Under the pieces are notes generated by a model. The model did not search any database, was not told the origin of the DNA, and worked only from the letters and a program-made list of their open reading frames with translations. 64,000 bases of DNA from an uncultured Clostridia bacterium (GTDB lineage Bacteria; Bacillota; Clostridia; TANB77; CAG-508), in the NCBI GenBank assembly GCA_944386695.1, contig CALXCB010000002.1, positions 12,322-76,321 on the forward strand, given 5' to 3'. A program made the translations under genes and the position numbers. Positions 2,036-48,259 of the stretch are shown piece after piece (position 1 is the stretch's first letter; the number at the start of each line of letters is the position of its first letter).

Positions 2036-2114
2036 AATTATTCCTCCTTTGCTTTTTTATATAAGCATTATATTATATAATTTTGCAAATATCAAGTCTA
2101 GAATTATTTCTTTT

Positions 2115-3368: not shown

Positions 3369-3471
3369 TTTTCTCTCATTCCTTTCATAAAGCTCTAAAT
3401 TATGTTATATTTTATGAGTCGATAATGTGTTTTGTTACTTAATTAGGTTTAAAATGTCGATTTTGATTATA

Positions 3472-4398: not shown

Positions 4399-5407
4399 TT
4401 ATTTCTCCTCCATTCTCAACTATCTCAAATTGCTCTTCTGTAGTCAATTTTCGAATTTTTTCAACTAAATCTGTCTCTTCTTTTACCAATCTTATTACTT
4501 CTCTTTTTAAATCTGTCATAATTTGATTAATTTTTCCTTCTTGTTGTTGTAATAAAGCAAACATATCTACAATTTCTTTTGGTATTTCTATAATTTCTTC
4601 TTTCTCTATTTCTCCATAATGTATTAATTCTAGTGATGAAAATGCTCTTCCTATTGTTTGAACTAATAAATTATTGTTTGCTGTATGTGGAATTATTGGA
4701 GTCATTCCACCTACTCTTTCAAGTATTGTTAACTTTGCTATTATTTTATTTTTTTCCAATGATTGTTTATTATTTAATGCTTTATAACTACTTATTCTTG
4801 CAGTTGGTGCCCTATATACTATTCCTTTTTTTAATTTTGCTTTACTTGTATCAAAATCTTCTTTTGAAATATATCTCATCTCTATTGTATTTTTAATTTC
4901 TTCTTCAGTTTGGCTATTATCTATTTCATTCAATGTTTTTAAGATTTTGCTATTGCCACTTATAGAAGAAGTATATTCAGCTACTTTTTTTGATATTTCT
5001 TCAAGCATATATTGTCCAGCATTTATGACTCTCTTTCCAAATTCTTTTTTTGCTACTTCTACCATTATGTATTTATCTTTGTATCTCCCTCTTCCATAAG
5101 AAATTGAGACATTTGCATTACTGGAAAGTGATATACAATTTGTGTCTTTTCTATAATTCACTTTTATATGGTCATATACTTGTTCTAAACTTATTTCATC
5201 TTCTTTACTATATTTGGGATTTTCATTTTTGGGATTTTCTTCATATCTTTCTCTATCTGTTCTTATTTTAGTTATTTGACCTTTACTATCTGTTATTTTA
5301 CCTTGTTCTAAATCTTGGTTGTCTGCCATATTTAAAGCTCGCAAAAAGTAATAGTTTTCTTCATCTTCTATTATATTAAAATTTTCTATATTAAATATAT
5401 CTTTCAT
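4391..5407 (-). CDS. hypothetical protein, 338 aa from the internal ATG with RBS AGAGGA (the ORF track starts 18 codons earlier); no recognisable domain
   Basis: Long hydrophilic, charged ORF. The C-terminus overlaps the hydrolase start by 8 bp. It lies 78 bp downstream of the KAP NTPase gene on the same strand. Confidence 0.6.
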   Translation of the reverse strand: MKDIFNIENFNIIEDEENYYFLRALNMADNQDLEQGKITDSKGQITKIRTDRERYEENPKNENPKYSKEDEISLEQVYDHIKVNYRKDTNCISLSSNANVSISYGRGRYKDKYIMVEVAKKEFGKRVINAGQYMLEEISKKVAEYTSSISGNSKILKTLNEIDNSQTEEEIKNTIEMRYISKEDFDTSKAKLKKGIVYRAPTARISSYKALNNKQSLEKNKIIAKLTILERVGGMTPIIPHTANNNLLVQTIGRAFSSLELIHYGEIEKEEIIEIPKEIVDMFALLQQQEGKINQIMTDLKREVIRLVKEETDLVEKIRKLTTEEQFEIVENGGEINE

Positions 5408-5539
5408 TTTACATTTTCCTCTGTTTCTTTTTATATAAGTTATTTTATCATAATGCATCAAAATTTGAAAGTTTTTTGTAGCTTTAAATAAAAATAAAGC
5501 CCTAATATTTCTATTAAAGCTTTACTTATCTCTATATAG

Positions 5540-11061: not shown

Positions 11062-11667
11062 TTATTTCCTTTTATATAAAATTTCATCTATTAAGCCGTA
11101 TTCTAAAGCTTCTTCTGCTGTCATATAATTATCTCTTTCTGTATCTTTCATTACTTGATCTATTGGTTTTCCTGTTCTATCTGCTAAAATTTTTGTTAAT
11201 CTTTCTCTTGTTTTTATCATTTGATCTGCATGAATTTTTATATCTGTTGTCTGTCCAGATATTCCTCCACCTGCAATTAAAGGTTGATGTATTAATATTT
11301 CTGCATTTGGCATTGCAAATCTTTTTCCTTTTTCTCCATTTGCTAAAAGCACCGCTCCAAAGCTTGCTGCTAATCCTAAGCAAAATGTTGAAACTGGGCA
11401 TTTTATATAATTCATCGTATCTACTATTGCTAATCCGTCTGTAACACTTCCTCCTGGTGAATTAATGTAAAAGTATATTTCTTTATCTGGATCTTCAGAT
11501 TCCAAAAATAGCATTTGAGCTATTACTAAACTTGCTGTTGTAGCATTTACATCTTCTCCTAGGAATATGATTCTATCTTTTAATAATCTTGAGAAAATGT
11601 CATATGATCTTTCCCCTTTGCTTGTTTGTTCAATTACATATGGTACTAAACTATTTTTTTCTAACAT
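11062..11667 (-). CDS. clpP: ATP-dependent Clp protease proteolytic subunit
   Basis: 201 aa. Ser-His-Asp protease with GLAASFG around the active Ser. tig-clpP-clpX order. Confidence 0.95.
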
Positions 11668-11765
11668 AATATTCCTCCTTGTTTGTTTTGTTGATTATAT
11701 AACATAGTTTTTAACACAAATAGGGAATGCTAAAAACTTATTTTAACCTCCCCTATCCTTTTACT

Positions 11766-13124
11766 TTATTCTGCTTTTTTTGTTGTTTTATTTTCAGTTT
11801 TCTCTACTTTTTCTTCTTTTACTTCTTTTTTAGCTTTCGCTTTCTTTTCTTTACTGTTTGCTACAAGAAACTCTATTGCTTTTTCTTGTTCAATTCCTTC
11901 TTTTATGTAATTTTTAATATTTTCGTTTTCTTCTAGTTCTTTTGCTTCTTTACCATAATTTTTAGCCATTTCTTCTATTTTGGCCTTTATTTCTTCTTCA
12001 TTGGCCTCTATTTTTTCAGCTTTTATTACAGCTTCTATTCCTAATCTTGATTTGATAGCTTCGATTGCTTGAGGTTCATATGCTTTTTTAAATTCGTCTT
12101 CTGTTTTATTTATCATTTTTAAGTACTGTTCCATTTTTAATCCTTGATATGACATTCTTTGTTCCATATCTCTCATCATATTTTCTGTTTCCATTTCAAT
12201 CATACCTGATGGAATATCTACTTTCATTTCATCTACTAATACTCTTACTACAGCATCTTGTTTTTCATATTTTTCTCTGTCCTTGTTTTGTTTTTCTAAT
12301 CTTTCTTTAATGCTGTCTTTTAATTCTTTTAAAGTATCATATTCGCTAACATCTTTTGCAAATTCGTCATCTAATTCTGGAAGTTCTTTTTTCTTTATTT
12401 CATTTAATTTTACTTTAAATGTTGCTTCTTTTCCTGCTAAATCTTTTGAGAAATATTCTTCTGGGAATGTTACTTTAATTTCTTTTTCTTCACCAATTTT
12501 CATTCCTATAACTTGTTCTTCAAATCCAGGAATAAATGATCCGCTTCCTAAAACTAGATCATGCCCTTCTGCTTTTCCACCATCAAATGCTATGCCATTT
12601 ACGAATCCTTCAAAGTCTATTTTTGCTGTATCACCTTCTTGCGCTGGTCTATTATCTATTGTAATTAATCTTGCGTTTTTGTCTTGCATATCAGCTAATT
12701 CGTTTTCGATATCTTCATCTTTAACATTATACTCTATTTTTTCAATTTCTATACCTTTATATTTTCCTAATTCAACTTCAGGTTTTGTTTGAACTGTTGC
12801 TGTAAACACTAAATCTTGTCCTTTTTCCATTGTTATGATGTCTATTTCTGGTCTTGATACAGCTTCTATTTTGTTTACTTCTAATGCTTCTTCATATTCG
12901 CTTGGAACTAATTCATTAAATGCATCTTCATAGAAAATTTCTTTTCCATAATATCTTTCTACTATATTTTGTGGTGCTTTACCTTTTCTGAATCCAGGAA
13001 TATTAAAGTATTTTGCATTTTGAAAATATACTTTTTTTATAGCATTTTCAAATTTTTCTGCTTCTATTTTTATCTCTAATTTTACTTCATTTGCATTTTG
13101 TGTTTTTTCTACCTTACACTCCAT
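11766..13124 (-). CDS. tig: trigger factor
   Basis: 452 aa. N-terminal ribosome-binding signature GFRKGKAP. FKBP-type middle domain. Lys/Glu-rich C-terminal tail. Confidence 0.93.
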   Translation of the reverse strand: MECKVEKTQNANEVKLEIKIEAEKFENAIKKVYFQNAKYFNIPGFRKGKAPQNIVERYYGKEIFYEDAFNELVPSEYEEALEVNKIEAVSRPEIDIITMEKGQDLVFTATVQTKPEVELGKYKGIEIEKIEYNVKDEDIENELADMQDKNARLITIDNRPAQEGDTAKIDFEGFVNGIAFDGGKAEGHDLVLGSGSFIPGFEEQVIGMKIGEEKEIKVTFPEEYFSKDLAGKEATFKVKLNEIKKKELPELDDEFAKDVSEYDTLKELKDSIKERLEKQNKDREKYEKQDAVVRVLVDEMKVDIPSGMIEMETENMMRDMEQRMSYQGLKMEQYLKMINKTEDEFKKAYEPQAIEAIKSRLGIEAVIKAEKIEANEEEIKAKIEEMAKNYGKEAKELEENENIKNYIKEGIEQEKAIEFLVANSKEKKAKAKKEVKEEKVEKTENKTTKKAE

Positions 13125-34276: not shown

Positions 34277-34337
34277 CATTTTATGATAAAATAATATTGT
34301 AACTTGTAAATCAAGCAATCTTGAAAGGAGGATGCGA

Positions 34338-34637
34338 ATGCATTACCTCGAAAAACAGTATAAGGAGTTGTGCGAAAACTTTTATATTTGCTCTAAAAAT
34401 GTTGAGAGCAAATCAGAAATCGTACGGACTCCTAATGGCGGCCAGATGATTTCTGCCAATTGCCTACTTGACGGAGTTGATCAGAAAGGTAACCCGTTTA
34501 AGTTGGACTTGCTTGAAAAATCCAACATAGCATATGTTGGAAAGCCGGGAACTGCTGAGGCAGGAGTCATCTATCCAGATGACCAGTTACTGGATGCTAT
34601 CGGCAAGGTAGATCCTAAAAACTTACCTCCTCCTTAA
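34338..34637 (+). CDS. hypothetical protein, 99 aa, in a compositionally atypical (~40% GC) islet
   Basis: RBS AAAGGAGG upstream. Much higher GC than the ~27% background. Flanked by two hairpins/terminators. No family recognised. Confidence 0.5.
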   Translation: MHYLEKQYKELCENFYICSKNVESKSEIVRTPNGGQMISANCLLDGVDQKGNPFKLDLLEKSNIAYVGKPGTAEAGVIYPDDQLLDAIGKVDPKNLPPP

Positions 34638-35290: not shown

Positions 35291-35380
35291 TTTCGCAAAA
35301 GGGACAGACCCTTTTGCGAAAGGGTCTGTCCTCAATGAGAAAAATTTTTCAAAAGGGTCTGTCCCCAATGAGAAATTTTT
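35291..35380. repeat. compound palindromic element, copy B, abutting the engB stop and overlapping the last 10 codons and stop of uvrB
   Basis: TAA-TTTCGCAAAAG-GGACAGACCC-TTTTGCGAAA-GGGTCTGTCC-TCAATGAGAAAAATTTTTCAAAAG-GGTCTGTCCCC-AATGAGAAATTTTT. Confidence 0.7.
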
Positions 35381-37347
35381 CTAATTCTTTTATTTTATCT
35401 CTTAATTCTGCTGCCTTTTCAAATTCCATTTTACTTGCATATTCTAACATTTCATCTGTTAATCTATTTATTGTAGCTTTTATATCTTCACCATTTTCAT
35501 TTTTAAATTCTACTTCTATGTCTTCAGTTTGTACTGCCCTTATAGCATCTCTTACAGATTTGTTTATAGTTTTAGGTATGATTCCATTTTTTTCGTTATA
35601 TTCAGTTTGAATTTTACGTCTTCTATTTGTTTCTGATATAGCTTTTTCCATAGATTCTGTTAATTCATCTGCATACATTATAACTGTCCCATCTGTATTT
35701 CTAGCCGCTCTTCCTATTGTTTGAATTAATGAACGTTCTGAACGTAAAAATCCTTCTTTATCTGCATCTAATATTGCAACTAATGATACCTCTGGAATAT
35801 CTAATCCTTCTCTTAATAAATTGATTCCTACTAAAACATCAAATTCTCCTAACCTTAAATTTCTTATTATTTCCATTCTTTCTAATGCTTTTGTATCTGA
35901 ATGCATGTAATTTACTTTTACATCTAAACTTTTTAAATATTCTGTTAAATCTTCTGCCATCTTTTTTGTCAATGTTGTAACTAGAACTCTTTCTTTTTTG
36001 GCTACCCTTATTCTTATTTGCTCTAATAAATCGTCAACTTGATTTGTTACTGGTTTTACTTCAATTTTAGGATCTAAAAGTCCTGTTGGTCTTATTATTT
36101 GTTCTACGACATTTTCCTTACTATGTTCTTTTTCATATTCAGCAGGTGTTGCACTTACAAAAACCACTTGATTAATTCTTTCCTCAAATTCATTAAATTT
36201 AAGTGGTCTATTATCATATGCTGATGGAAGTCTAAAACCATATTTTACAAGTGAATCTTTTCTGGATTTGTCTCCATTATACATTGCTCTTACTTGTGGA
36301 ATTGTAGCATGTGATTCGTCAATTAATAGCAAAAAATCTTTTGGAAAGTAATCAAATAATGTATATGGTGGCGAACCTGCAGGCCTACCACTCATATGTC
36401 TTGAGTAATTTTCGATTCCTTGACAAAATCCTGTTTCTTTCATCATCTCTATATCAAAATTTGTTCTTTCTTCTATACGTTGAGCTTCTATTAACTTGTT
36501 TTGCGATTTAAAATACTGTATTCTCTCTTCTAGTTCTTCTTCTATTGTTACAATTGCTCTTTCCATTTTATCTTTACTTGTTACATATTGTGAAGCTGGT
36601 GGTATTAGAACATGGGTTCTAGTACCTATGGGTTTTCCTGTTAGTGGATTTATCTCAGATATTTTTTCTATTTCATCTCCCCAAAACTCCACTCTTATTG
36701 CCGCTTCACTTTGTGATGATGGGTAAATCTCTAAGATATCTCCTTTAGCTCTAAATGTTCCTCTTTTAAAATCTATTTCATTTCTGGAATATTGCATTGT
36801 TACTAGTTTTTTCATTATAGAATCTCTTGATTTTTCTTGACCTGGTCTTATAGATAACATCATTTCTTGATAATCTATAGGGTCTCCTAATCCATATATG
36901 CAAGATACTGAAGCAACAACTATTACATCTCTTGTCTCAAACAAAGATAGTGTTGCTGAATGGCGAAGTTTATCTATTTCGTCATTTATTGAAGCATCTT
37001 TTTCTATATAAGTATCAGAGCTCGCTATATAACTTTCTGGTTGGTAGTAATCATAATATGACACAAAATATTCAACTCTATTTTCTGGAAAAAACTCTTT
37101 AAATTCTGAATATAATTGTCCAGCTAAAGTTTTATTATGTGCTAAGACAAGAGTTGGTTTTTGTACCTTCTCTATTATATTTGCCATTGTAAATGTTTTT
37201 CCGAGAGCCTGTAACTCCTAGAAGTGTTTGATATTTCTTGCCTTGTTTTATTCCATTTGATAGATATTCTATTGCTTGTGGCTGATCTCCTGTTGGCTTA
37301 TATTCTGAATGTAATTTAAACATTCTTTGCCTCCTAACTTTTTTCAT
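35349..37347 (-). pseudogene. uvrB: excinuclease ABC subunit B, split by a +1 frameshift at ~37201-37204 (TCTCGGA where TCT GGA is expected, inside the Walker A GVTGSGKT)
   Basis: A 70-aa N-terminal ORF (..LLGVTGS) plus a 612-aa ORF starting ..[11 protein letters not shown]. Removing one C gives a continuous UvrB. The C-terminal codons ..LIGDRPF* come from repeat element B. Confidence 0.85.
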
Positions 37348-39865: not shown

Positions 39866-42800
39866 CTAAATTTTAATTTCTTTTCCCAGAAAAGTAGAAT
39901 AAATATATACTTTATCTACTTTTCTATTTAATCCATTCTCTAATGCTTCTTTATATAGCATCAATTGTGCTTTATGCCTTTCAACTAAAATTTGTTCTCC
40001 ACTGGCACCGAATGGACCGGTTCTTTTTGACACCGAGGAACCAAAAAGAACCGGTCCATTTGGTGCATTTGGTGCCAAAAAATCTGTTTTATAATCTAGA
40101 AGTATTAATTCATCATTTTTGTTTATATAATATAAATCTATAATTCCTTGCACTAATATATTTTCATCTTCAGTTGTTTCCATTACATCTTTAGCGGGTA
40201 TATTAATATAAAAAGGCTCTTCTTTATGATATTCTTTTGCTTCTTTTAATTCTTGCCATATATTAGATTGTGTGAATTTTAATATAACATATGGATTAAT
40301 TGCCTCTAGCCCTTTTTGTGTTATCATTTCTCTGGCTTTTAAATCTTCTATAAGATTTTTTATATCTTGCAAATTATAGTCTTTTCCAAATTCTAAATTT
40401 TTCATACATAAATGTACTAGTGTTCCTCTCTGAGCTGGTGTTATTTTTTCTTCTTCTGTTCCAACTAAAAATTTTGGTTTTGGAAACTCTAACATTTCTA
40501 TCTCTTTTTCTTTCTTATCCTCGTCATTATCCACATTATCCGTTTTTTTGTTTTCATTATTTAATTCTTCTATTTCTTCTAAATCGTCTCTTTCACTAAT
40601 TGTTTCTGTTTCATCTTCCAATTTTAGCGAGTACTTTATTTCTTTAATATTTTTATGAACGATATTTGTTACAGATTCTTTTGTTGGTATTTTTATCAAA
40701 TCTTTGTATGGATATTCAAATACCAATTGATTTTTTAATTTTATAATTTCTTCTTCTTTTATATTTTTAGAATTTTCTTCTAATAGTTTGAATATATCTA
40801 TATCTTGTTTTTCCTCTTCTTTTATACCTTTTAATATGTCTTGTCCTTTTAAAACATTTATTTCCATAATGTTTTTTGATTGTTCTGGATTATATAAAAA
40901 TGTGAGTAAAATCCAATCTATATATTTTTTGTATTTTTTTAATAAATTTGAATTTATTTTTCCATTTTCTAGTTTGTATATGTCCACTAATTCCTTCATT
41001 TTTTCTTTTTCTTTATTAGAATCTTTTTTTATACCTGTGATATAAATTTTCTCTTTTGCCCTAGTTAAAGCAACATACAATATACGCATTTCTTCTGCTA
41101 AATTTTCTTCTAGTAACTTTTCTCTTAATGCTAATTTAGTAATTGTATCATATTTTATTTGCTTGTCATAATCGATATATTTCACGCCTATTCCAAGATC
41201 TTGATGTAATAAAATATCATTATTTAAGTCTTGCATATTGAAATTAGAACCTGTGCCTACTAAAAATACAATTGGAAATTCTAGTCCTTTGCTTTTGTGA
41301 ATACTCATTATTCTTACTACATTTTCATTTTCTCCTATTAGTTTTGCAGCTCCTAAATCTCCACTTCCTAATTTTATTTTTTCTATGAAATTAATAAAGT
41401 TGAATAATCCCTTAAATGTCGCACTTTCATATTGCTTTGCTCTTTCAAAAAGCATTTTTAGGTTTGCTACTCTTAAGTTTCCATTTGGCATTAGAGCTAC
41501 ATAATTTAAAAATCCCGTTTTTTCATATATTGTCCAAATTAGTTCGTCCAAATCTAGAATTTGATTTTTTTGGCGAAAATCTTCTAATTTTTCTAAGAAA
41601 TTTTCTATTTTTTCTTTTAATTCTTCTCTTACAGAAAGTTTAGATTTTAACATAGCTGTGTAAAAATCATCTTGATCATCACATAATCTTATTTCTAGTA
41701 AGTCATCATTTGTAAACATACCTATACTTGATAACATAATATGAACTAGCGGTATATCTTGGTATGGATTATCTATAATCTTTAATAAGTCCATAATTAT
41801 TTGTATTTCATAAGATTCTAGATATTCTGATGAGGTATCTGAATATACATCGATATTTTGCAAAGTAAGTTCTTTTTCAAAAATATTTGCTTTATTTTTA
41901 GTTGAACGAAGTAATATTACTATATCTTTACATTCAATTTTACGAAATTTTTCTTTTTTGTTATCATAAACTTGAAAACTACTATCTAACAAGTCACGTA
42001 TTTTTTTTGCTACAAATTTAGCTTCTAGTTCTATATCTTCTAATTTTTCCTGTTCTTCTTGATCTTCTTCTAAGCTATCATTTTGAATGTTACTTTGTAT
42101 CTCACTTTCCTCTAACTTCTCTTCATCCTCTAGTGGGTCTAATATATCTATTTCTGAAATCAAGTTTTCTTTACTTTCTGGATATGCTGCACCTAAATTC
42201 AAATATTCTTCTTCTGTATATTCTATCTCTCCTAGTTCTTTTCCCATTATACTTTCAAAGATCATATTTGTAATTTCAAGTACATTTTCTCTACTTCTAA
42301 AATTTTTAAAAAGTTTGATTTTTAAGCCTTTTTCATTTGCTGTGTTTTCACTATAATTTTGATATTTATTTAAAAATAAATCTGGCATTGCTTGTCTAAA
42401 TTTATAAATACTTTGCTTGACATCTCCTACCATAAAAATATTATTTCCTTTTGATATTGATGTTAATATATATTCTTGTACTAAGTTACTATCTTGATAT
42501 TCATCTATTGCTATTTCTGCAAATTTTTCTTGATATTTTTTTGCAATATCAGAACTTTCTATTTTTTCATCATTTTCTTTTATTAGTATTTCAAGTGCTA
42601 AATGTTCAATGTCACTAAAATCTACTATGTTTTTTTCTTTTTTGCTTTTTTTGAATTTTTCATCAAAATCAAGGATTATTCTTTTTAATTTTACTAATAT
42701 TTCATACATTTCCTGTAAATCTATATTTGCTTGCTCTGAATTTGATATGAAGATTTTATCTCTTTTATCAGTAAAATTCTTTTTTACTTTGTCTCTTATT

Positions 42801-43702
42801 TTTTTTGCATTATCTTTTTCTGGATTTGTTATTTTTCTAGATGATGGCCATTTTAAAAATTCTACTTGATTGGCTAAAAGATATGCTTTATCCCAATTTT
42901 CTAGATTTCCCAAAACCATTTCTAATTGTTGTATATCAGATGTTAGTATTTTTTCATATGATTCTAATTCTTTATCTACTGATAATCTTCTTTCTTCAGA
43001 TTTTAGCTTTTTTATGTTATCTTCTAGTTCTTCTTTCATGCTTTCTAATAAAATCTTTCCCCAAACTGTTTTCGAGAAGTCTTGTTTGATATCTTTAATA
43101 TTGAATTTTTCTATTTGGGTATCTAACCATTTTAAAGGAAATGGGTTTGATTCAATGTATGTGTATATTTTTAATATTAAGTCTTTTAGTGGAGTATCAT
43201 CTCTATAAGATGTATAGGTTTTTATTAATTTTTCAAAATCAGCATCATGATTTTCGTATTTTTCTTCGAAAAGTGTTTCTAATACTTCTTGTTTTTGTAG
43301 ATCTATTTCAGCAGTGTCAGCAATTCTGAAGTTCGGCGAAATTTCTATTTCGAAAAAATTATTTCTTATTACATCTAAACAGAATGAATCTATTGTGCAT
43401 ATACTTGCTTTATTTAATAATGTAATTTGTCTTTGCAAATGATTTATAGTTTCTTCATCTTGCTCTTCTTCATTATCTATTATTTTATATATTGCAGTTA
43501 AAATTCTTTCTCTCATTTCAGATGCTGCTGCATTGGTAAATGTTACGACTAAAAGTTTGTCTATATCTATTTTTTCTTTTATTATTTTATTGATAATTCT
43601 TTCAACAAGTACTGCTGTTTTTCCACTTCCTGCTGCTGCTGCAACTAAAATGTTGCTACCTTTTTCATATATTGCTTGAGATTGCTCCTTTGTCCAATTC
43701 AT
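39866..43702 (-). CDS. addA: ATP-dependent helicase/nuclease subunit A (AddA/RexA)
   Basis: 1278 aa. UvrD-like helicase N-terminus (AAAGSGKT). C-terminal RecB-family nuclease motif IDLYYI...LLDYKTD. No addB upstream. Confidence 0.9.
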   Translation of the reverse strand: MNWTKEQSQAIYEKGSNILVAAAAGSGKTAVLVERIINKIIKEKIDIDKLLVVTFTNAAASEMRERILTAIYKIIDNEEEQDEETINHLQRQITLLNKASICTIDSFCLDVIRNNFFEIEISPNFRIADTAEIDLQKQEVLETLFEEKYENHDADFEKLIKTYTSYRDDTPLKDLILKIYTYIESNPFPLKWLDTQIEKFNIKDIKQDFSKTVWGKILLESMKEELEDNIKKLKSEERRLSVDKELESYEKILTSDIQQLEMVLGNLENWDKAYLLANQVEFLKWPSSRKITNPEKDNAKKIRDKVKKNFTDKRDKIFISNSEQANIDLQEMYEILVKLKRIILDFDEKFKKSKKEKNIVDFSDIEHLALEILIKENDEKIESSDIAKKYQEKFAEIAIDEYQDSNLVQEYILTSISKGNNIFMVGDVKQSIYKFRQAMPDLFLNKYQNYSENTANEKGLKIKLFKNFRSRENVLEITNMIFESIMGKELGEIEYTEEEYLNLGAAYPESKENLISEIDILDPLEDEEKLEESEIQSNIQNDSLEEDQEEQEKLEDIELEAKFVAKKIRDLLDSSFQVYDNKKEKFRKIECKDIVILLRSTKNKANIFEKELTLQNIDVYSDTSSEYLESYEIQIIMDLLKIIDNPYQDIPLVHIMLSSIGMFTNDDLLEIRLCDDQDDFYTAMLKSKLSVREELKEKIENFLEKLEDFRQKNQILDLDELIWTIYEKTGFLNYVALMPNGNLRVANLKMLFERAKQYESATFKGLFNFINFIEKIKLGSGDLGAAKLIGENENVVRIMSIHKSKGLEFPIVFLVGTGSNFNMQDLNNDILLHQDLGIGVKYIDYDKQIKYDTITKLALREKLLEENLAEEMRILYVALTRAKEKIYITGIKKDSNKEKEKMKELVDIYKLENGKINSNLLKKYKKYIDWILLTFLYNPEQSKNIMEINVLKGQDILKGIKEEEKQDIDIFKLLEENSKNIKEEEIIKLKNQLVFEYPYKDLIKIPTKESVTNIVHKNIKEIKYSLKLEDETETISERDDLEEIEELNNENKKTDNVDNDEDKKEKEIEMLEFPKPKFLVGTEEEKITPAQRGTLVHLCMKNLEFGKDYNLQDIKNLIEDLKAREMITQKGLEAINPYVILKFTQSNIWQELKEAKEYHKEEPFYINIPAKDVMETTEDENILVQGIIDLYYINKNDELILLDYKTDFLAPNAPNGPVLFGSSVSKRTGPFGASGEQILVERHKAQLMLYKEALENGLNRKVDKVYIYSTFLGKEIKI

Positions 43703-43705
43703 AAA

Positions 43706-44638
43706 TTAAATCCTCTCTATTTCCTCTATTGATAATCCTGTAATTTCTGATATTTTTTTTATTTCAAAGCCCTCTTCTAAAAGCTTTTTAGCAATTTTTC
43801 TTTTTTCATTTTTTTCTCCTTGCTTTAGTCCTTCCTCTTTTCCTTGTTTCAATCCCTCTTCTTTTCCTTGTTTCAATCCCTCTTCTTTTCCTTGTTTTAA
43901 TCCTTCTTCTTTTCCTTGTCTTAGTCCTTCTTCAGTTCCTTTAGCTTTTGCTGTTTCTAATGCTGAGTGCTCTTCTAGTTCTGACATTAATCTTATTTCT
44001 GCTAGTCTTTTTATTTCTTTATCTCCTGTTAAAACTTCGTAATCATCTAATGCTTCTTTTATTTCTTTATTTTCTTTTTTAGCCATTTCTAGTAAATCCC
44101 CCCTTTCCATATCTACAAATGCTAACCATTGATTTGCACTTTCTTTCATATTTGGTTTTTCTTTTCTAAATTTTTCTAATTCTATATAATAATATTTTAC
44201 TAAATTATTTATTTCATATTCCTTATGTTTCTTTGCTACTCTTACTGTCTCTGTTATATATTCTGGTAATCCTGTTAATGTATAGTTTAATATTGCTATT
44301 ACTATTACTTTTTTTAATTCTTCGTACCTTCCTTTTGGTTCTAATTGTTCTACAATTTTTTTACTGGCATAAAATGTAGTTCTTTCTTCTATATTTTTAT
44401 TATCTCTTAACTGCATTTCGATGTTGACAATTTCTCCATCTTCCAATTCAACCTCTAAATCCAATATTCCATATTTCATTTCTTTTGTTAATTGCTCTAA
44501 ACGAGCATCATGCATAACTTTTTTGATTTTTATATTTTCTTCTAAAATTGCACTTAAAAAGCTTTTTAAATATTTTTCGTTTCTACTGAAAAAAGCTTTA
44601 AATACAATATCATTTTTCATTGTTAATTTTTCTGTCAT
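43706..44638 (-). CDS. Rpn/YhgA-like PD-(D/E)XK nuclease-family putative transposase with a C-terminal DUF4351-like tail and a (KEEGLKQG)x5 tandem repeat
   Basis: N-terminus NDIVFKAFF...LDLEVELEDGEIVNIEMQ...TFYASK matches the Rpn recombination-promoting nuclease family. C-terminus IAKKLLEEGFEIKKISEITGLSIEEIERI is typical of it. Start set at MTEKLTMK with RBS GGAGG. Confidence 0.75.
   Translation of the reverse strand: MTEKLTMKNDIVFKAFFSRNEKYLKSFLSAILEENIKIKKVMHDARLEQLTKEMKYGILDLEVELEDGEIVNIEMQLRDNKNIEERTTFYASKKIVEQLEPKGRYEELKKVIVIAILNYTLTGLPEYITETVRVAKKHKEYEINNLVKYYYIELEKFRKEKPNMKESANQWLAFVDMERGDLLEMAKKENKEIKEALDDYEVLTGDKEIKRLAEIRLMSELEEHSALETAKAKGTEEGLRQGKEEGLKQGKEEGLKQGKEEGLKQGKEEGLKQGEKNEKRKIAKKLLEEGFEIKKISEITGLSIEEIERI
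43818..43937. repeat. 24-bp tandem repeat x5 (CCTCTTCTTTTCCTTGTTTCAATC) inside the Rpn-like gene, encoding EEGLKQGK repeats
   Basis: Direct inspection shows near-identical consecutive 24-mers. Confidence 0.8.
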
Positions 44639-45162
44639 TAATATACCTCCTATTATAATTTGTTTTTTCTTATTTAGCAATATTTTTCAAAAAAATAATA
44701 CATAATAAATAGAATATTGGGCATCACTTCCTTTCTACAAGATTTTATTTGCTTTGACTCAAAACTTTTAATTTAGAAATAAAAAATTAAATTTTTGTAA
44801 TTAATTCAAATAGATTTAAAATCAATAAAAAATTAATTTGCATTTATAATAATAACATAAATAGAAAAAAATTACAATTGATTTTGCAATTTTTTCTATA
44901 AAACCCTATATTTCAACTATTATATCTACTCCTTTAAAATAAATTTTTGAGTAGTTTTGTTCTTTTAATTCTGCTGGTATTTCTTCTGTTTTCCCTTGAT
45001 AAATTATGTTACCATTTTGTTTTATTATTATATTTAATAATCTTAATTCTTTTATTTTCATATTTAATCTTATTCCCTTCAAAAAAAATATATTTTATTG
45101 GTATATTATAATACTTATTTTGATTTGTTTCAAGATATTTATTTGCTTTATTTTTGCCCATT

Positions 45163-45201
45163 TAATAAAAAAAACGTTATCGCTTTTACACGATAACGCC
45201 C
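45163..45201 (-). terminator. rho-independent terminator (CGTTATCG...CGATAACG stem plus a U8 tail on the minus strand)
   Basis: 8-bp stem with an A8 run on the plus strand. Lies downstream of the small membrane-protein gene. Confidence 0.6.
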
Positions 45202-45221
45202 TTCTTTAACTTTTTTGCCAA

Positions 45222-45434
45222 CTATAACAAGCCAGCAAGCCAAGTCAAGAAGTCTTGCAATTTTGTTGCAGCAGCCTCTTGCAGTGAAGGCCACATTGTA
45301 AAAGCAACTAAAATAGCTGCTATTACACATACTGCAGAAATTGCATTTGGGTGTTTCTTAAAAAGATCCACCCGGGTTGATACCTGCACTGCAATTGCTA
45401 CAGTGACAAGTACCAGGAAGAGATTAAATAACAT
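45222..45434 (-). CDS. small two-TM membrane protein (70 aa) inside the higher-GC island
   Basis: MLFNLFLVLVTVAIAVQV...AAILVAFTMWPSL. The region is ~45-50% GC against a ~27% background. Has its own terminator. Confidence 0.5.
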   Translation of the reverse strand: MLFNLFLVLVTVAIAVQVSTRVDLFKKHPNAISAVCVIAAILVAFTMWPSLQEAAATKLQDFLTWLAGLL

Positions 45435-45515
45435 TCTCTTCCTCCTTTCTTTTGTTATGCTTTTGTCAACAAGTTACCCTTTTTATTATAACATTTTACA
45501 CCTTAAAAATCAAAT

Positions 45516-45544
45516 TTGATTTATTTTACATAAAATGATATAAT
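45516..45544 (+). promoter_or_regulatory. sigma70-like promoter (-35 TTGATT, 17-nt spacer, -10 TATAAT) for the 270-aa ORF
   Basis: Consensus hexamers upstream of RBS AAAGGAGGTG and the ATG at 45595. Confidence 0.45.
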
Positions 45545-45594
45545 AATAGTGTAGTTATAAACTTTGCTGAACAAAAGAAAGGAGGTGCCTTACT

Positions 45595-46407
45595 ATGAAG
45601 GCACTTAAAAGACATCCGCGATCACGCGGATTTAATTGGAACTCGTTAAATTTTAAAAAAACAAAAATCCGATTCAACTTCAATCGGATATCAAAAAAGC
45701 AATGGCATTATATCGCTGTTACTATATTCTTAATGCTAGAGATAATAGCATTAGGAATATCCCTAATGCAAGGGACAGTCGAACTCATAATAGGCTTGCT
45801 CCTTAGTGCAGGAGCACTATTATGGTTCACTCAAAAAGAACAGACCCTTGCAGACAATATAGCTCAAGCTATATTGTCAATATTTTGGGGATTCTGGATT
45901 ATAGGATATCTAAGCATATTCTCAATCCTGGAATTTGGCTTGTTCTTGTATTTGTTTATACAAAAAATAAGAACAACGCCAAAAGCAAACCCAATAACCA
46001 AAAGGTTAGGGAACGATGGGGTTGTATTAAAAAAAATACAACCAATATTCCCTTTACCAATAGAAATTCCGGCATTTTACCGGGAAATATACATTACAAA
46101 AAGTGGGACCTCCTACTCTTTTATAACTGTATATCTCGGCAAATTTGTTATACCGACAGATCTTTGCACCTGTTCGGGGGTAGACTTAGACAAGGTTGGG
46201 CTTCAAATCTTTAACTTTGAGCACGTAGTGCTCCTAACTAAGGAAGAAGAAGCTCTCCTTAAGATCTATCTGCCACAGGGAGAAGGTCTCGAGGTAAGGA
46301 ATTTCTTAACAACACAAATAACTTGTGCTTGTACTGATAATAAGATTACAAGAAATCTTATTGAACCCAAACACAAGCACAAGCGAAAAAAAAGAAAGAG
46401 GGAATGA
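45595..46407 (+). CDS. hypothetical membrane protein (~4 TM in the N-terminal half, Cys-containing C-terminal domain, KR-rich tail), higher-GC island
   Basis: 270-aa ORF with a strong RBS. GC far above background. No family recognised. Confidence 0.5.
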   Translation: MKALKRHPRSRGFNWNSLNFKKTKIRFNFNRISKKQWHYIAVTIFLMLEIIALGISLMQGTVELIIGLLLSAGALLWFTQKEQTLADNIAQAILSIFWGFWIIGYLSIFSILEFGLFLYLFIQKIRTTPKANPITKRLGNDGVVLKKIQPIFPLPIEIPAFYREIYITKSGTSYSFITVYLGKFVIPTDLCTCSGVDLDKVGLQIFNFEHVVLLTKEEEALLKIYLPQGEGLEVRNFLTTQITCACTDNKITRNLIEPKHKHKRKKRKRE

Positions 46408-46423
46408 GAGTTCCAGTGAAAGG

Positions 46424-46466
46424 AACAACCACGGCAGATCTATTCCAACGTGGTTGATTCCTTTTT
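46424..46466 (+). terminator. rho-independent terminator (CAACCACG...CGTGGTTG + TTCCTTTTTTGTTTTT)
   Basis: 8-bp stem followed by a T-rich tract right after the 270-aa ORF, between convergent genes. Confidence 0.6.
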
Positions 46467-46471
46467 TGTTT

Positions 46472-48259
46472 TTATACCCCATTCAAAATTCTTTCAGCTA
46501 ACTCCCTATTAACACCTTTAACCTCCATTAACTCTTCTATACTTGCCTTTTTAATCTTCTCAACACTTCCAAACCTCTTAAGCAAAGCCTTTTTCTTTGC
46601 ATCACCAATACCTTTAATACCATCAAGTTCAGATTTAGTTAACTCTTTATCTCTAAGCTTTCTATGGTAAGTAATTGCTGTATCATGTACAGTATCTTGA
46701 AATAAAGTAATCAAATTAAATAAATTCTCTGAAATTTCAATTTCATTTCTTTCTTCATCCATCAAAGCTCTAGTCTGATGCTTATCATTTTTTACCATTC
46801 CAAAAATTTTAATATCCACACCAAATTTATCAACAGCTCTTCTAACTGCTCTAATTTGTGTAATACCACCATCTGCAAATATAGCATCTGGTAATCTTCC
46901 AAAACCTTTATCTTGTGGATTCTCTACCGAATGAGCTAATCTTCTAGTTATAACCTCTTCCATACATCTAGGGTCATCTTGACCCAAAACCGTTTTAATT
47001 TTAAATCTTCTAGACAAATTCTTTTTAATCACTCCATCTTCCATAACGCACATAGCTGCTACCATAAATTCTCCTGATATATTAGATATATCATAAGTCT
47101 CTATCTTTCTTGGTAATTTGTCCATCTTCAATTTATCTTTCAACTCTAGTAAAATAGCATTTTGTGTTTTCTCTTTATTATCTAATGTTACTTTACTATT
47201 TTTTTCAGCCATTTCTACAAACCTTAATTTTCCACCTCTTTTAGTACTATGTATAACCACTTTATGCGTAGTTTTGCTACTTAGCCATTCTTCTAATGCC
47301 TTTTCATCTTCCAACTCTTCTCTTATCATTATTTTATTTGGAATATTTAAATTATCCATATAATATTGTTTAATAAATCCAGATATAATCTCTTTATCTT
47401 CCATATCACCAAGATTATCAAAAAAATAATGCTCTCTTCCTATCATTTTACTACCACGAACAAAAAATATTTCTATACAAACCTCTAATTCTGACTTTGC
47501 CATACCTATTACATCAATATTATTTTCTGAAATATTAGAAACTTTCTGTTTTTGAGATGCTGTTTCAATTGCCATCATTCTATCTCTTATGTAAGCCGCT
47601 TCTTCAAAATTAAGTTTCTCTGATGCTTCTTTCATTTGATGTTTTAAATCTTTCAAGATTTTATCAGTCTTGCCTTCTAATAAGTCTATTATTTCATCAA
47701 TTTGTTTTCTATAATCTTCTTTACTTATATTCCCTATACAAGGAGCCAAACATCTTTTAATATGGTAATTTAAACAAGCTCTTGTATTAGATTTAAAATT
47801 TCTACATTGCCTTATTTTATATTTTTGTTTTATAAAATTAACCATTTCCTTTGCAGCTCCAGGATTTGCATAAGGTCCAAAATACTTTGAACCGTCATTT
47901 ATTACTCTTCTTGTTATGACAACATTTGGAAAATCAGACTTAACATCAATTTTTATATAAGGATATGTTTTATCATCTTTTAATAAAACATTATATTTAG
48001 GTCTATTCTTCTTTATCAAATTACATTCCAAAATTAATGCTTCTGCCTCATTACTAACTACAATATATTCAAAATGGTCTATCAAAGAAACCATTTTTAA
48101 GATTCTATCTGTCTTATTTGTTTTCCTAAAATAAGAACTAACTCTATTTTTCAAATTAACCGCTTTGCCAACATAGATAATATTATCATCTTTATCTTTC
48201 ATCAAGTAAACACCAGGCTCTTTGGGCAACTTTTTAAGTTCTTCTTTTATATCAAACAT
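46472..48259 (-). CDS. uvrC: excinuclease ABC subunit C
   Basis: 595 aa. N-terminal GIY-YIG (GVYLMKDKDDNIIYVGKA). UvrBC-binding domain. RNaseH-like and HhH domains. Confidence 0.95.
   Translation of the reverse strand: MFDIKEELKKLPKEPGVYLMKDKDDNIIYVGKAVNLKNRVSSYFRKTNKTDRILKMVSLIDHFEYIVVSNEAEALILECNLIKKNRPKYNVLLKDDKTYPYIKIDVKSDFPNVVITRRVINDGSKYFGPYANPGAAKEMVNFIKQKYKIRQCRNFKSNTRACLNYHIKRCLAPCIGNISKEDYRKQIDEIIDLLEGKTDKILKDLKHQMKEASEKLNFEEAAYIRDRMMAIETASQKQKVSNISENNIDVIGMAKSELEVCIEIFFVRGSKMIGREHYFFDNLGDMEDKEIISGFIKQYYMDNLNIPNKIMIREELEDEKALEEWLSSKTTHKVVIHSTKRGGKLRFVEMAEKNSKVTLDNKEKTQNAILLELKDKLKMDKLPRKIETYDISNISGEFMVAAMCVMEDGVIKKNLSRRFKIKTVLGQDDPRCMEEVITRRLAHSVENPQDKGFGRLPDAIFADGGITQIRAVRRAVDKFGVDIKIFGMVKNDKHQTRALMDEERNEIEISENLFNLITLFQDTVHDTAITYHRKLRDKELTKSELDGIKGIGDAKKKALLKRFGSVEKIKKASIEELMEVKGVNRELAERILNGV

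What the first reader, a model, noticed from the sequence alone, without database searches (positions are those of the whole stretch)
45163..46466. Higher-GC (~45-50%) 1.3-kb islet with two divergently transcribed membrane-protein genes and its own promoter and terminators
Base composition jumps from ~27% to ~45-50% GC between the terminators at 45163-45201 and 46424-46466. Inside are a 70-aa two-TM protein (minus strand) and a 270-aa protein with ~4 TM plus a Cys-containing soluble domain and a KHKHKRKKRKRE tail (plus strand; consensus promoter TTGATT-17-TATAAT and RBS AAAGGAGGTG). Compositional foreignness, compactness and self-contained signals suggest a horizontally acquired cassette. It could be a toxin/immunity or holin-like pair, or a phage or plasmid remnant. 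It lies next to the Rpn-like nuclease gene.
Basis: seen in the sequence. Interest (0 to 1): 0.55.

Follow-up and report, generated by a model that had tools for sequence, protein, structure and literature searches.

The report
Hypervariable, hairpin-packed membrane-protein gene cassette
The GC-richer 1.3-kb islet is a swappable gene cassette that sits in the same slot next to uvrC in a whole group of uncultured gut Clostridia; it encodes a previously undescribed, extremely variable membrane protein, and its coding DNA is packed with hairpins that are actively maintained, which is very unusual for a bacterial gene.

Summary
The islet is real, but its GC is 36% (background 28%), not 45-50%.

- **Not a recent import.** It shows no phage or plasmid similarity. 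Homologues of the 270-aa gene sit in the same position, convergent with uvrC, in at least 12 related species of uncultured gut Clostridia. uvrC stays 86-91% identical there, while the family protein is under 40% identical.
- **Alleles swap as cassettes.** Within one species a 270-aa allele and a 378-aa allele, related only at profile level, replace each other. The breakpoints are just after the -10 box and in the last codon of uvrC.
- **The protein is new by sequence.** It has four TM helices, a cytoplasmic PH-like domain and a basic tail, with no Pfam, NCBIfam, PHROG or PADLOC match. dN/dS is 0.2-0.4.
- **The extra GC is synonymous and marks dense hairpins.** GC3 is 0.35 against 0.13. Folding z is -13 to -18, and -11.5 against synonymous-codon shuffles. 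Real substitutions between alleles preserve the fold energy.
- **Every allele has a hairpin joining the SD spacer to codons 2-5.**

Function is inferred, not shown: a tightly throttled, conflict-type membrane protein, possibly for phage exclusion or immunity.

The parts
45163..45201 (-). Intrinsic terminator of the 70-aa gene. Also the left edge of the islet: similarity to L020/L021 starts at 45167.
   Evidence: Hairpin CGTTATCG-N8-CGATAACG at 45175-45198, followed by T8 on the minus strand. The L020 match begins at 45167.
45222..45434 (-). 70-aa small membrane protein (p70): two hydrophobic helices and an amphipathic C-terminus. It is a lineage-restricted, variable partner gene.
   Evidence: ORF. 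Only two 90%-identity clusters in 5.8e9 proteins, at 93% and 83% identity. GC 40.8%, GC3 0.33. Synonymous-shuffle folding z -4.5. dN/dS 0.22-0.26.
45441..45585 (.). Mirror-symmetric divergent control region. It holds two back-to-back TTGATT-17-TATAAT promoters and two mirrored leader/RBS segments.
   Evidence: Promoters: + 45516-45544 and - 45513-45485. Inverted repeat I1 45483-45514/45515-45546. A 16-nt perfect inverted repeat covers both RBS regions, 45441-45456/45570-45585.
45547..46471 (+). The exchangeable cassette proper: leader and RBS, family gene, and its own terminator.
   Evidence: The window and L007/L010/L016 are identical up to ...GATATAATAA, and again from CCATTCAAAAT (the last codons of uvrC). 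They are unrelated in between.
45585..45604 (+). SD-start hairpin. The spacer 3' of the SD pairs with codons 2-4, and the AUG lies in the loop.
   Evidence: GTGCCTT-ACTATG-AAGGCAC. The -16..+24 region folds at -12.5 kcal/mol, against -1.8 +/- 1.8 for 45 other genes. An equivalent hairpin with a different sequence is seen in most of the 22 islet genes tested (Mann-Whitney p 1e-8).
45595..46407 (+). 270-aa family gene: a 4-TM membrane protein with a cytoplasmic PH-like domain and a basic tail.
   Evidence: ORF. Remote homologues E 9e-33 to 2e-4. Profile-profile match to the 378-aa allele family: probability 96%, E 4.7e-9. dN/dS 0.2-0.4 in allele pairs of the family. No Pfam, NCBIfam, PHROG or PADLOC family.
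45694..45975 (+). Four predicted transmembrane helices (residues 34-127), forming two helical hairpins.
   Evidence: AF2 helices 34-59, 62-80, 85-105 and 108-127. The basic N-terminus and the basic post-TM4 linker imply N-in/C-in by the positive-inside rule (inference).
46012..46344 (+). C-terminal domain of about 110 aa: seven beta-strands plus a C-terminal helix (PH-like). It carries the motifs QPIxPxP..IPAF[WY]R, K.G.SY, PTDLCxC..(P)D and ITxAC...(I)xR.
   Evidence: Domain-only AF2 model: pLDDT 77.7, pTM 0.70. Foldseek top hits are almost all PH/PTB folds, with weak E-values of about 0.02. The best viral hit is 'Bacterial PH domain protein', E 2e-3, TM 0.53. Alignments A3, A5, A6.
46369..46404 (+). 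Basic tail KHKHKRKKRKRE.
   Evidence: Translation. Similar K/R-rich tails occur in P0008, P0010, P0014 and P0016.
46424..46466 (+). Terminator of the family gene, back to back with the end of uvrC. It belongs to the cassette, because the other allele brings a different terminator.
   Evidence: Hairpin AACCACG...CGTGGTT plus a T-run. L007 has a different hairpin at the same place.
44906..45082 (-). Conserved 51-aa gene (p51, start most likely at 45061). It marks the addA-side border of the variable slot.
   Evidence: 57-80% identical in 19 related MAGs (one distant hit at 35%), and next to addA in most of them.
46472..48259 (-). uvrC, the conserved right-hand anchor of the slot.
   Evidence: 86-91% aa identity across the related species. 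Pfam domains were called in the syntenic loci.

Best explanation
The islet occupies a long-lived hypervariable slot between addA/p51 and uvrC in a clade of uncultured, low-GC (about 28%) gut Clostridia.

**The gene.** Its main gene encodes a clade-restricted, previously undescribed membrane protein. The protein has four TM helices (N-in/C-in), a cytoplasmic PH-like beta-sandwich domain and a basic tail.

**The alleles.** They are very old and very different. The 270-aa and 378-aa forms coexist in one species. TM and C-terminal modules are shuffled between species. Alleles are exchanged as whole cassettes by homologous recombination in the conserved flanks.

**The GC.** The raised GC is not a sign of foreign origin. 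It sits mostly at synonymous sites and reflects dense local hairpins superimposed on the coding sequence. These are kept during divergence. They include a hairpin that ties the SD-proximal spacer to codons 2-5 in nearly every allele.

**Shown.** Synteny, cassette exchange, homology, purifying selection on the protein, and the extreme and maintained foldedness.

**Inferred.**
- The initiation hairpin throttles translation, and the hairpin-dense mRNA is long-lived or nuclease-resistant.
- The protein is a dosage-sensitive, conflict-type factor acting at the inner face of the membrane. It may work in phage superinfection exclusion or in immunity to membrane-active agents, like other membrane-anchored bacterial PH-domain proteins.
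- Balancing or diversifying selection would then explain the allele diversity.
- I put about 0.3 on this functional part alone.
For: **Synteny.** The family gene is directly convergent with uvrC in L022, L023-27, L028-33, L038, L039, L041-43, L048 and L052. These are uncultured Clostridia MAGs from human, Hadza, rabbit and other guts. uvrC is 86-91% aa identical, while the family gene is under 40% identical.

**Allele exchange within a species.** L007/L010/L016/L018 carry the 378-aa allele in 98.8-99.6% identical flanks, with sharp junctions. L052 has uvrC at 98.9% but the family gene at 93.2%.

**Homology.** Exhaustive phmmer finds P0008 at E 9e-33 and six further hits. hhalign of the 270-type against the 378-type gives 96% probability, E 4.7e-9. 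The same TM module is joined to different C-terminal types.

**A real protein.** dN/dS is 0.2-0.4. The C-terminal domain gives a coherent AF2 model with PH-like hits.

**Composition.** GC3 is 0.35 against 0.13 +/- 0.04 in the window. In 14 other alleles it is 0.28-0.51, against 0.12-0.28 for the flanking uvrC or addA genes.

**Foldedness.**
- z -18.5 for the mRNA against dinucleotide shuffles; the uvrC control gives -1.95.
- z -5.5 to -16.5 in nine alleles, but only -2.5 and -3.2 in L023 and L028.
- The structured zone is confined to 45200-46500 and is the most structured 1.2 kb of the window.
- Synonymous-codon shuffles give z -11.5 for the window gene and -4.9 to -15.8 for other alleles. Controls give +0.6 to -1.6.
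- The gene is a unique outlier among 48 ORFs.

**Maintenance.** The 55 real substitutions between W and L052 leave the MFE unchanged (-239 to -242). Matched random substitutions give -190 +/- 8 (z -6.6). The reciprocal test and the 378-type pair give z -3.9 to -4.7. The uvrC control gives +0.4.

**Initiation hairpin.** It covaries across unrelated alleles.

**Functional analogy.** TM-anchored PHb proteins have a cytoplasmic PH domain (PMC2817789). The lactococcal prophage protein sie285 is a membrane PHb protein (PMC6127208).
Against: - No experiment and no annotated homologue bears on function.
- The PH-like assignment rests on a model of moderate confidence. Foldseek E-values are only 2e-3 to 2e-2, TM-scores are 0.36-0.53, and no Pfam bPH model matches.
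- There is no defence-system signature (PADLOC negative).
- dN/dS gives no evidence of pervasive positive selection.
- Hairpin positions are not conserved between diverged alleles: 36 of about 190 pairs are shared in the divergent half of L007 versus L011.
- Both strands fold almost equally well. A DNA-level or mutational origin, such as template switching, therefore cannot be separated from RNA-level selection for the body of the gene.
- Two alleles (L023, L028) have weak structure, and L023 has near-host GC.
- The family was not detected in some more distant relatives.
Confidence: 0.6

Rival explanations
1. Recent horizontally acquired cassette, or a phage or plasmid remnant.
For: - GC and GC3 are far above the host values.
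- The unit is compact, with its own promoter, RBS and terminators.
- The same islet occurs beside an IS200-like transposase and PAP2 in L020.
- GC and foldedness vary among alleles, as if they decayed after import.
Against: - A homologue sits in the same slot in at least 12 related species.
- The family is essentially restricted to this clade: 9 hits in 1.84e9 representatives.
- There are no phage, plasmid or IMG/VR hits.
- No PHROG matches the window's proteins; one homologue gives a weak hit at E 7e-4, and L033 another at E 0.003.
- No direct repeats or integrase were found.
- The GC excess is tied to maintained hairpins, not to a donor's general codon usage.
Confidence: 0.12
2. A two-gene toxin/immunity or holin-like pair, p70 plus the 270-aa protein, that works as one functional unit.
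For: - Both are membrane proteins, transcribed divergently from a mirror-symmetric promoter/RBS region.
- They stay linked in a second genomic context, L020/L021.
- Both have SD-occluding hairpins, as expected for toxic products.
Against: - p70 is not a conserved partner. L022 has a 117-aa soluble acidic protein, L023-27 have 390- and 802/818-aa coiled-coil proteins, and L028 has a 389-aa protein.
- p70 is found with both the 270- and the 378-aa alleles.
- There is no endolysin nearby.
- No holin or toxin match reaches significance in Pfam, PHROGs or PADLOC. The only hit is Phage_holin_10 at E 0.18, far below threshold.
- The p70 C-terminus is amphipathic, not highly charged.
Confidence: 0.1
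3. The hairpin density is a by-product of a local mutational process rather than of selection. The process would be intra-strand template switching at quasipalindromes in a recombination-prone or conflict-prone locus. The GC rise would follow from which hairpins are stable, or from GC-biased repair.
For: - The stems are mostly Watson-Crick, and both strands fold about equally well.
- Hairpins turn over in position between diverged alleles.
- The loops carry no functional motifs.
- Template switching is known to create and maintain hairpins (PMC8794818).
- The gene is oriented against most genes of the window.
Against: - Between close alleles, substitutions avoid stems: 24 of 56 fall in the 62% of positions that are paired. 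Only 2 of 22 affected pairs show paired double changes.
- Fold energy is conserved against matched random substitutions.
- The SD-start hairpin has the same functional geometry in unrelated alleles, which points to selection at the RNA level.
- Neighbouring variable genes in the same slot, the coiled-coil proteins, have no such signature.
Confidence: 0.2
4. An ordinary, weakly constrained core membrane protein that simply evolves fast; nothing special.
For: The position is syntenic across the clade. dN/dS is below 1.
Against: - Two alleles in one species lack any BLAST-detectable similarity.
- The recombination junctions are sharp.
- Modules are shuffled between species.
- The family gene diverges about 6.5 times more than uvrC within one species.
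- It is a unique outlier in GC3 and foldedness among 48 ORFs.
Confidence: 0.06
5. The region is really a large structured non-coding RNA and the ORF is fortuitous.
For: Extreme folding z-scores.
Against: - There is no Rfam match, even at E up to 10.
- An 810-nt ORF is unlikely by chance at 36% GC.
- Protein-level homology reaches E 9e-33 with no significant DNA match in the blastn comparison.
- dN/dS is 0.2-0.4.
- The AF2 domain model is coherent.
- The structure is not conserved in position.
Confidence: 0.02

Closest known systems
Membrane-anchored bacterial PH (PHb) domain proteins: Pfam bPH_2/DUF304, DUF1200 and DUF2244 (Xu et al. 2010, PMC2817789)
   Same: N-terminal TM helices are followed by a predicted intracellular PH-like beta-sandwich capped by a C-terminal helix. 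The proteins are small and of unknown biochemical function. Some members are linked to envelope stress or to phage lysogeny modules.
   Different: No sequence match to any Pfam bPH model. There are four TM helices rather than the usual two. There is a basic tail and conserved Cys positions. The family is clade-restricted and hypervariable. The fold match is only moderate (TM 0.36-0.53).
Lactococcal prophage superinfection-exclusion proteins (sie285 / Sie2009 type)
   Same: Small membrane protein with a PHb domain (PMC6127208, citing Xu et al.). This is a plausible model for a polymorphic, conflict-driven membrane factor.
   Different: Sie genes lie in prophage lysogeny modules. This gene is chromosomal, between addA and uvrC, with no prophage around it. 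There is no sequence similarity, and function has not been tested here.
[quoted passage not shown] 2019, PMC6649704)
   Same: Numerous hairpin-forming inverted repeats are embedded in translated protein-coding sequence. This is a compromise between protein function and nucleic-acid structure.
   Different: Those are long perfect inverted repeats (up to 284 bp) in conserved respiratory genes of an organelle. Here the stems are short (6-15 bp) and local, they turn over quickly, and they lie in a hypervariable bacterial accessory gene. They go with raised GC3.
Hypervariable or idiomorphic loci held between conserved genes (for example pneumococcal cps between dexB and aliA, or agr specificity groups); comparison from my own knowledge
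   Same: The chromosomal slot is fixed. Deeply divergent alleles are exchanged by recombination in conserved flanks. Several alleles coexist in one species.
   Different: Here the slot holds a single small gene of unknown function. The composition anomaly runs towards higher GC and is tied to secondary structure.
Type I toxin and holin-like small membrane proteins with structured, translation-occluded mRNAs; comparison from my own knowledge
   Same: Hydrophobic products. A strong SD is partly sequestered by a local hairpin. The mRNAs are highly folded.
   Different: No antisense RNA or endolysin was identified. The main product is 210-400 aa with a soluble domain. No family match.

Membership tests
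Bacterial PH-domain (PHb/bPH) membrane proteins | PH-like fold: a seven-stranded beta-sandwich capped by a C-terminal helix | tested here: inconclusive
Bacterial PH-domain (PHb/bPH) membrane proteins | Sequence match to Pfam bPH models (PF03703, PF08000, PF06713, PF10756 and others) | tested here: not met
   No bPH family was reported at E up to 1, either for the full protein or for 15 C-terminal domains.
Bacterial PH-domain (PHb/bPH) membrane proteins | N-terminal TM anchor with the PH domain on the cytoplasmic side | tested here: met
   Four AF2 helices at residues 34-127. The N-terminus is basic, the linker after TM4 is basic and the tail is basic. Topology follows from the positive-inside rule and is a prediction only.
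Superinfection-exclusion (Sie) proteins of temperate phages | Encoded in a prophage lysogeny module | tested here: not met
   The flanks are addA, p51, uvrC and hpt. There are no phage genes, and no phage or IMG/VR hits.
Superinfection-exclusion (Sie) proteins of temperate phages | Blocks phage DNA entry | not testable with these tools
   This needs infection assays, and the host is uncultured.
Holin / lysis cassette | Small 1-3 TM protein with a highly charged C-terminus, next to an endolysin | tested here: not met
   p70 has 2 TM helices but an amphipathic, weakly charged C-terminus. No endolysin ORF is nearby. There are no holin hits above threshold.
Recently acquired genomic islet (HGT) | Atypical base composition or codon usage | tested here: met
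   GC 36% against 28%. GC3 0.35 against 0.13 +/- 0.04.
Recently acquired genomic islet (HGT) | Absent from the same locus in close relatives | tested here: not met
   A family member sits next to uvrC in at least 12 related species.
Recently acquired genomic islet (HGT) | Mobility signatures: integrase or transposase, flanking direct repeats, similarity to mobile elements | tested here: not met
   No flanking direct repeats and no phage or plasmid similarity. The only hint is an IS200-like gene beside the islet in L020.
Known anti-phage defence systems (PADLOC-DB 2.0) | Match to a defence-protein HMM | tested here: not met
   No hits for the family alleles, p70 or p117. The other partner proteins give only sub-significant hits (E 0.02-0.04).
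Known structured RNA families (Rfam 15) | Covariance-model match | tested here: not met
   Nothing at the gathering threshold, and only noise at E up to 10 in 44600-46600.

The most novel reading that the evidence does not exclude
These cassettes may represent a class of bacterial genes whose nucleic-acid foldedness is itself the selected trait. One possibility is that the cassette spends a critical stage as single-stranded nucleic acid: either ssDNA during inter-strain transfer and recombination, or an mRNA that must survive nuclease attack during phage infection or toxin activation. Another is that dense quasipalindromes act as a built-in diversification engine, through template switching, for a membrane PH-domain exclusion protein. 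Either way, this would be a bacterial counterpart of 'coding palindromes', coupled to a hypervariable immunity-like locus.
Probability: 0.15. Interest if true: 0.85.

Novelty: new variant of a known kind. Interest (0 to 1): 0.7.

Why it matters
1. It defines a new protein family restricted to one clade: 4 TM helices, a PH-like domain and a basic tail. The family marks a hypervariable slot in abundant but uncultured gut Clostridia. The slot is a natural strain marker and a candidate locus for phage-host or inter-strain conflict.
2. It shows that a GC-rich islet in an AT-rich genome need not mean foreign DNA. Here the excess GC lies at synonymous sites and encodes secondary structure.
3. The degree of maintained folding inside a bacterial coding sequence is far outside the usual range. 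z is about -12 against synonymous shuffles, the fold energy is conserved through real divergence, and an SD-start hairpin covaries in unrelated alleles. This makes the locus a clean natural system for asking why an entire mRNA, or its DNA, is selected to be folded.

Tried and rejected
**Family and RNA-model searches**
- Rfam, at gathering thresholds and at E up to 10: nothing in the region.
- Pfam, NCBIfam, PHROGs and PADLOC on the family alleles, p70, p51 and partner genes: nothing above threshold.

**Homology searches**
- The word-indexed search made the 270-aa protein look like an orphan. The exhaustive search corrected this.
- Its hit P0009, a 5185-aa repeat protein with 16 stretches, was rejected as spurious summed repeat matches.
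- BLASTP of the 270-aa against the 378-aa allele showed no similarity. A profile-profile comparison was needed.
- tblastn against phages and plasmids, and IMG/VR scans: no relatives.
- A profile search against PDB sequences returned only noise.

- The genome-contig scan with the family alignment failed because no conserved stretch was long enough. The conserved 51-aa neighbour was used instead.

**Ideas tested and dropped**
- Flanking direct repeats or target-site duplications: none.
- REP, MITE or RPE-like repeated palindromes: rejected, because the hairpin sequences share no consensus and are not repeated.
- A single conserved RNA structure: rejected, because hairpin positions are not shared between diverged alleles.
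- GNRA or UNCG loop enrichment: none.
- Sense-versus-antisense asymmetry as a test of RNA-level against DNA-level structure: inconclusive. Sense is more negative in 13 of 18 genes, but controls are also asymmetric in energy.
- Compensatory-change counting in close pairs: too few informative pairs.
- The signature as a general property of all accessory genes in the slot: rejected. The coiled-coil partners are host-like.

**Other**
- The first literature search for bPH terms returned only irrelevant hits.
Full report
**1. The observation**

The composition claim is overstated.
- GC of 45163-46466 is 36.0%. The 70-aa gene is 40.8% and the 270-aa gene 36.5%. Only single 100-nt windows reach 43-45%.
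- The anomaly is still real. This is the highest-GC 1.3-kb window of the 64 kb (mean 28.3%, sd 2.7%).
- At third codon positions the 270-aa gene has GC3 0.35, against 0.129 +/- 0.043 for 35 ORFs of at least 200 aa (a set that includes the family gene). It is a lone outlier among 48 ORFs.
- The surroundings are addA (39866-43702), a PDDEXK_2/Rpn-like gene (43706-44680), a small conserved 51-aa gene (44906-45061), then the islet. After it come uvrC (46472-48259), hpt and the glmS ribozyme with glmS.

**2. Is it foreign?**

The word-indexed protein search found only the protein itself. An exhaustive HMMER search of 1.84 billion representatives then found a handful of remote homologues. P0008 is 39% identical (E 9e-33), and P0010-P0015 are 24-35% identical. 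All are 210-280 aa with the same layout. One further hit, a 5185-aa repeat protein, is spurious.

The genomic contexts are the key result.
- Every homologue whose contig could be read lies at the same place, directly convergent with uvrC. The order is addA - p51 - variable genes - family gene - uvrC - hpt - glmS.
- I used the conserved 51-aa neighbour as bait against one genome per species. This returned 20 loci, all uncultured gut Clostridia MAGs.
- Profile searches of their ORFs found a family member next to uvrC in most of the closer species.
- Across these species UvrC is 86-91% identical to the window's, while the family protein is below 40% identical.
- There are no hits in phage or plasmid collections or in IMG/VR. 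PHROGs gave only weak single-homologue hits and PADLOC only sub-significant ones. No flanking direct repeats were found.

So this is not a recent import. It is a long-standing variable slot. The Rpn-like gene is an incidental neighbour, because the syntenic loci L022, L023, L027 and L028 lack it.

**3. Cassette exchange**

Contigs from the same species carry a 378-aa gene in place of the 270-aa gene (L007, L010, L016, L018). Their flanks are 98.8-99.6% identical to the window.
- The sequences are identical through the -10 box (...GATATAATAA, 45546) and again from the last codon of uvrC (about 46469-46477). They are unalignable in between. Each allele brings its own leader, RBS and terminator.
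- BLASTP sees no similarity between the two alleles. A profile-profile comparison shows they are remote homologues over TM3-4 and the C-terminal domain (probability 96%, E 4.7e-9).
- Both alleles occur in metagenomes of the same study series.
- A third strain, L052, has uvrC at 98.9% but a 270-type allele at only 93.2%.
- In L020/L021 the islet 45167-46104 recurs at 95% identity, but its left neighbours are an IS200-like transposase and a PAP2 gene.
- Between species, one TM module is combined with different C-terminal domain types.
- The 70-aa gene is not a fixed partner. It accompanies both alleles here. Elsewhere it is replaced by a 117-aa soluble protein or by coiled-coil proteins.

**4. 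The protein**

- dN/dS between allele pairs is 0.2-0.4. The gene therefore encodes a protein under purifying selection, though it is less constrained than uvrC at 0.05-0.15.
- AlphaFold predicts four TM helices at residues 34-127.
- For the C-terminal 130 residues it predicts seven beta-strands followed by a helix (pLDDT 77.7, pTM 0.70).
- Foldseek hits are almost exclusively PH/PTB-superfold domains. They include two bacterial PH structures and, in BFVD, a phage 'Bacterial PH domain protein'. The statistics are weak: E 2e-3 to 2e-2 and TM 0.36-0.53. No Pfam bPH model matches.
- The basic N-terminus, the basic linker after TM4 and the basic tail place the domain in the cytoplasm. This rests on the positive-inside rule and is an inference.
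- This is the general architecture described for membrane-anchored bacterial PH proteins (PMC2817789). One of these, the lactococcal prophage protein sie285, is named as a superinfection-exclusion (sie) gene (PMC6127208).

I therefore treat the family as new by sequence, with a probable PH-like fold. The Sie or immunity analogy is a lead, not a membership.

**5. Why the GC is high**

The terminator scan found nine terminator-like hairpins where 1.3 were expected, most of them inside the ORF.

How structured the region is:
- The 925-nt mRNA folds at -324.6 kcal/mol, against -196.5 +/- 6.9 for dinucleotide shuffles (z -18.5). The equivalent uvrC stretch gives z -1.95.
- In 200-nt sliding windows the strong signal is confined to about 45200-46500, on both strands.
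- It is the most structured 1.2 kb of the window.
- Seven of the window's 42 perfect hairpins with stems of at least 8 bp lie in this 2% of the sequence.

How general the property is:
- Whole-gene z is -16.5 for the 378-aa allele, -15.8 for L022, and -5.5 to -9.1 for six further alleles. It is weak only in L023 and L028.
- Mean local z is -1.2 to -5.9 in all 18 islet genes tested, against +0.1 to -0.7 in the controls.

Two tests show that the structure is encoded on purpose, or at least kept:
- Shuffling synonymous codons, which keeps the protein and the codon counts, abolishes it. z is -11.5 for the window gene, -15.8 for L052, -13.4 for L007 and -4.9 to -8.9 for other alleles. p70 gives -4.5 and p117 gives -7.7. 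The controls uvrC, hpt and Rpn give +0.6 to -1.6.
- The 55 real substitutions separating the window and L052 alleles leave the fold energy unchanged (-239.4 to -241.6). The same number, type and codon phase of substitutions placed at random give -189.6 +/- 7.9 (z -6.6, 0 of 60). The reciprocal test and the 378-type pair give z -3.9 to -4.7. A uvrC control gives +0.4.

Consistently, substitutions are under-represented in paired positions.

The structure is generic rather than specific:
- In the divergent half of L007 versus L011, each allele has about 190 predicted pairs but only 36 are shared.
- The loops show no GNRA or UNCG bias.

**6. A shared RNA feature**

In most alleles a hairpin pairs the spacer just 3' of a strong SD with codons 2-5, leaving the AUG in the loop. 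This also holds for p70, p117 and the second GC-rich orphan in the window.
- The sequences differ in every allele. Examples are GTGCCTT/AAGGCAC, GGGATC/GATCCC, GTAGC/GCTAC and GTGCTCA/TGAGCAC. The geometry is the same.
- The -16..+24 region folds at a mean of -8.4 kcal/mol in 22 islet genes. The 45 other genes of the window average -1.8 +/- 1.8 (Mann-Whitney p 1e-8).

This is the best evidence that at least part of the selection acts on the mRNA. It suggests throttled translation, as expected for a dosage-sensitive membrane protein. That last step is an inference.

**7. Interpretation and limits**

Shown:
- A syntenic hypervariable slot, with allele exchange by cassette.
- A new protein family under purifying selection.
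- Raised synonymous GC tied to dense, maintained hairpins.
- A covarying initiation hairpin.

Inferred:
- A cytoplasmic PH-like domain.
- Translational throttling and a stable mRNA.
- A conflict-type role such as phage exclusion or immunity, which would explain ancient coexisting alleles.

Not resolved:
- Whether the body-wide hairpins are selected at the RNA level, at the DNA or ssDNA level, or are partly generated by template switching (PMC8794818).
- Why foldedness should be favoured in this gene.
- What the protein does.

The nearest described phenomenon for hairpins inside translated sequence is the 'coding palindromes' of nematomorph mitochondria (PMC6649704), which differ in scale and context.

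**8. Verdict**

It is a cassette, but not a recent foreign one, and not demonstrably a toxin or holin pair. The locus is more interesting than proposed, because of the within-species idiomorphs and the extraordinary maintained secondary structure of the coding sequence.

Noticed in passing
window 34332-34637 (+): A second small orphan-like gene (101 aa, between serS and the engB-like GTPase gene) has the same signature as the islet. GC3 is 0.43, fold density -0.30 kcal/mol/nt and synonymous-shuffle z -4.1 to -4.8. It also has an SD-start hairpin (-8.6 kcal/mol). There is no Pfam-like or NCBIfam/PHROG match, and the exact sequence is not in the protein collection.
   Followed up: partly
window 35349-37347 (-): uvrB appears split. 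A 70-aa ORF carries the N-terminus up to a garbled Walker A motif (GVTGSRKN...). A 612-aa ORF starts at ...[11 protein letters not shown]. This is either a frameshift (pseudogene) or an assembly error in a homopolymer.
   Followed up: no
window 45441-45585: The divergent promoter region is a large imperfect palindrome. It has two mirrored TTGATT-17-TATAAT promoters and a 16-nt perfectly complementary pair of leader/RBS segments (CCTCCTTTCTTTTGTT / AACAAAAGAAAGGAGG). The left cassette junction coincides with the end of the right arm.
   Followed up: partly
window 43706-44680 (-); L013, L017: The Rpn-like PDDEXK_2 protein ends in tandem GKEEGL[KR]Q repeats whose number differs between strains. 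The gene is present or absent at this locus among close relatives. A related Rpn-like gene lies beside a 259-aa family member in a different context (an aquaporin gene upstream) in L013.
   Followed up: partly
window 44906-45082 (-): A 51-aa protein (MKIKELRLLNI.IKQN...GVD.I.EI) is conserved in 19 related MAGs and lies next to addA in most of them (57-80% identity). It has no family assignment. Its protein cluster oddly also lists a stingray MECOM isoform, presumably a clustering artefact.
   Followed up: partly
L023-L027 (about 2100-5800) and L028 (4663-5832): In other species the slot also holds large coiled-coil proteins (390, 691-818 and 389 aa) with host-like GC and no Pfam or significant PADLOC match. 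A 126-129-aa membrane protein lies between addA and p51. These are further uncharacterised occupants of the same variable region.
   Followed up: partly
L020 1064-1564; L023-L027 about 11347-12120: IS200/Y1-type transposase genes recur near the locus. One lies beside the islet in L020, and others lie downstream of glmS in several species. The L020 copy has a structured mRNA (synonymous-shuffle z -4.7).
   Followed up: no
window about 55201, 35251, 52501, 17851, 58201: Isolated 150-nt windows fold very strongly (z -5.8 to -9.3) without any Rfam hit. They are probably terminators between convergent genes or unannotated leader elements.
   Followed up: no
L036 6253-6828: In one species a 192-aa family-like protein (4 TM helices plus an ...LGLPNIFRRY... 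motif; GC 38%; synonymous-shuffle z -5.9) lies next to uvrC but on the same strand as uvrC. Its orientation is inverted relative to all other loci.
   Followed up: no
L020 280-504 and 2-283: The 270-type allele in L020 is split into two frames, 74 aa plus a 94-aa continuation in the +1 frame. This is a frameshifted pseudogene or an assembly error. L021 from the same study series is intact over the same stretch.
   Followed up: no
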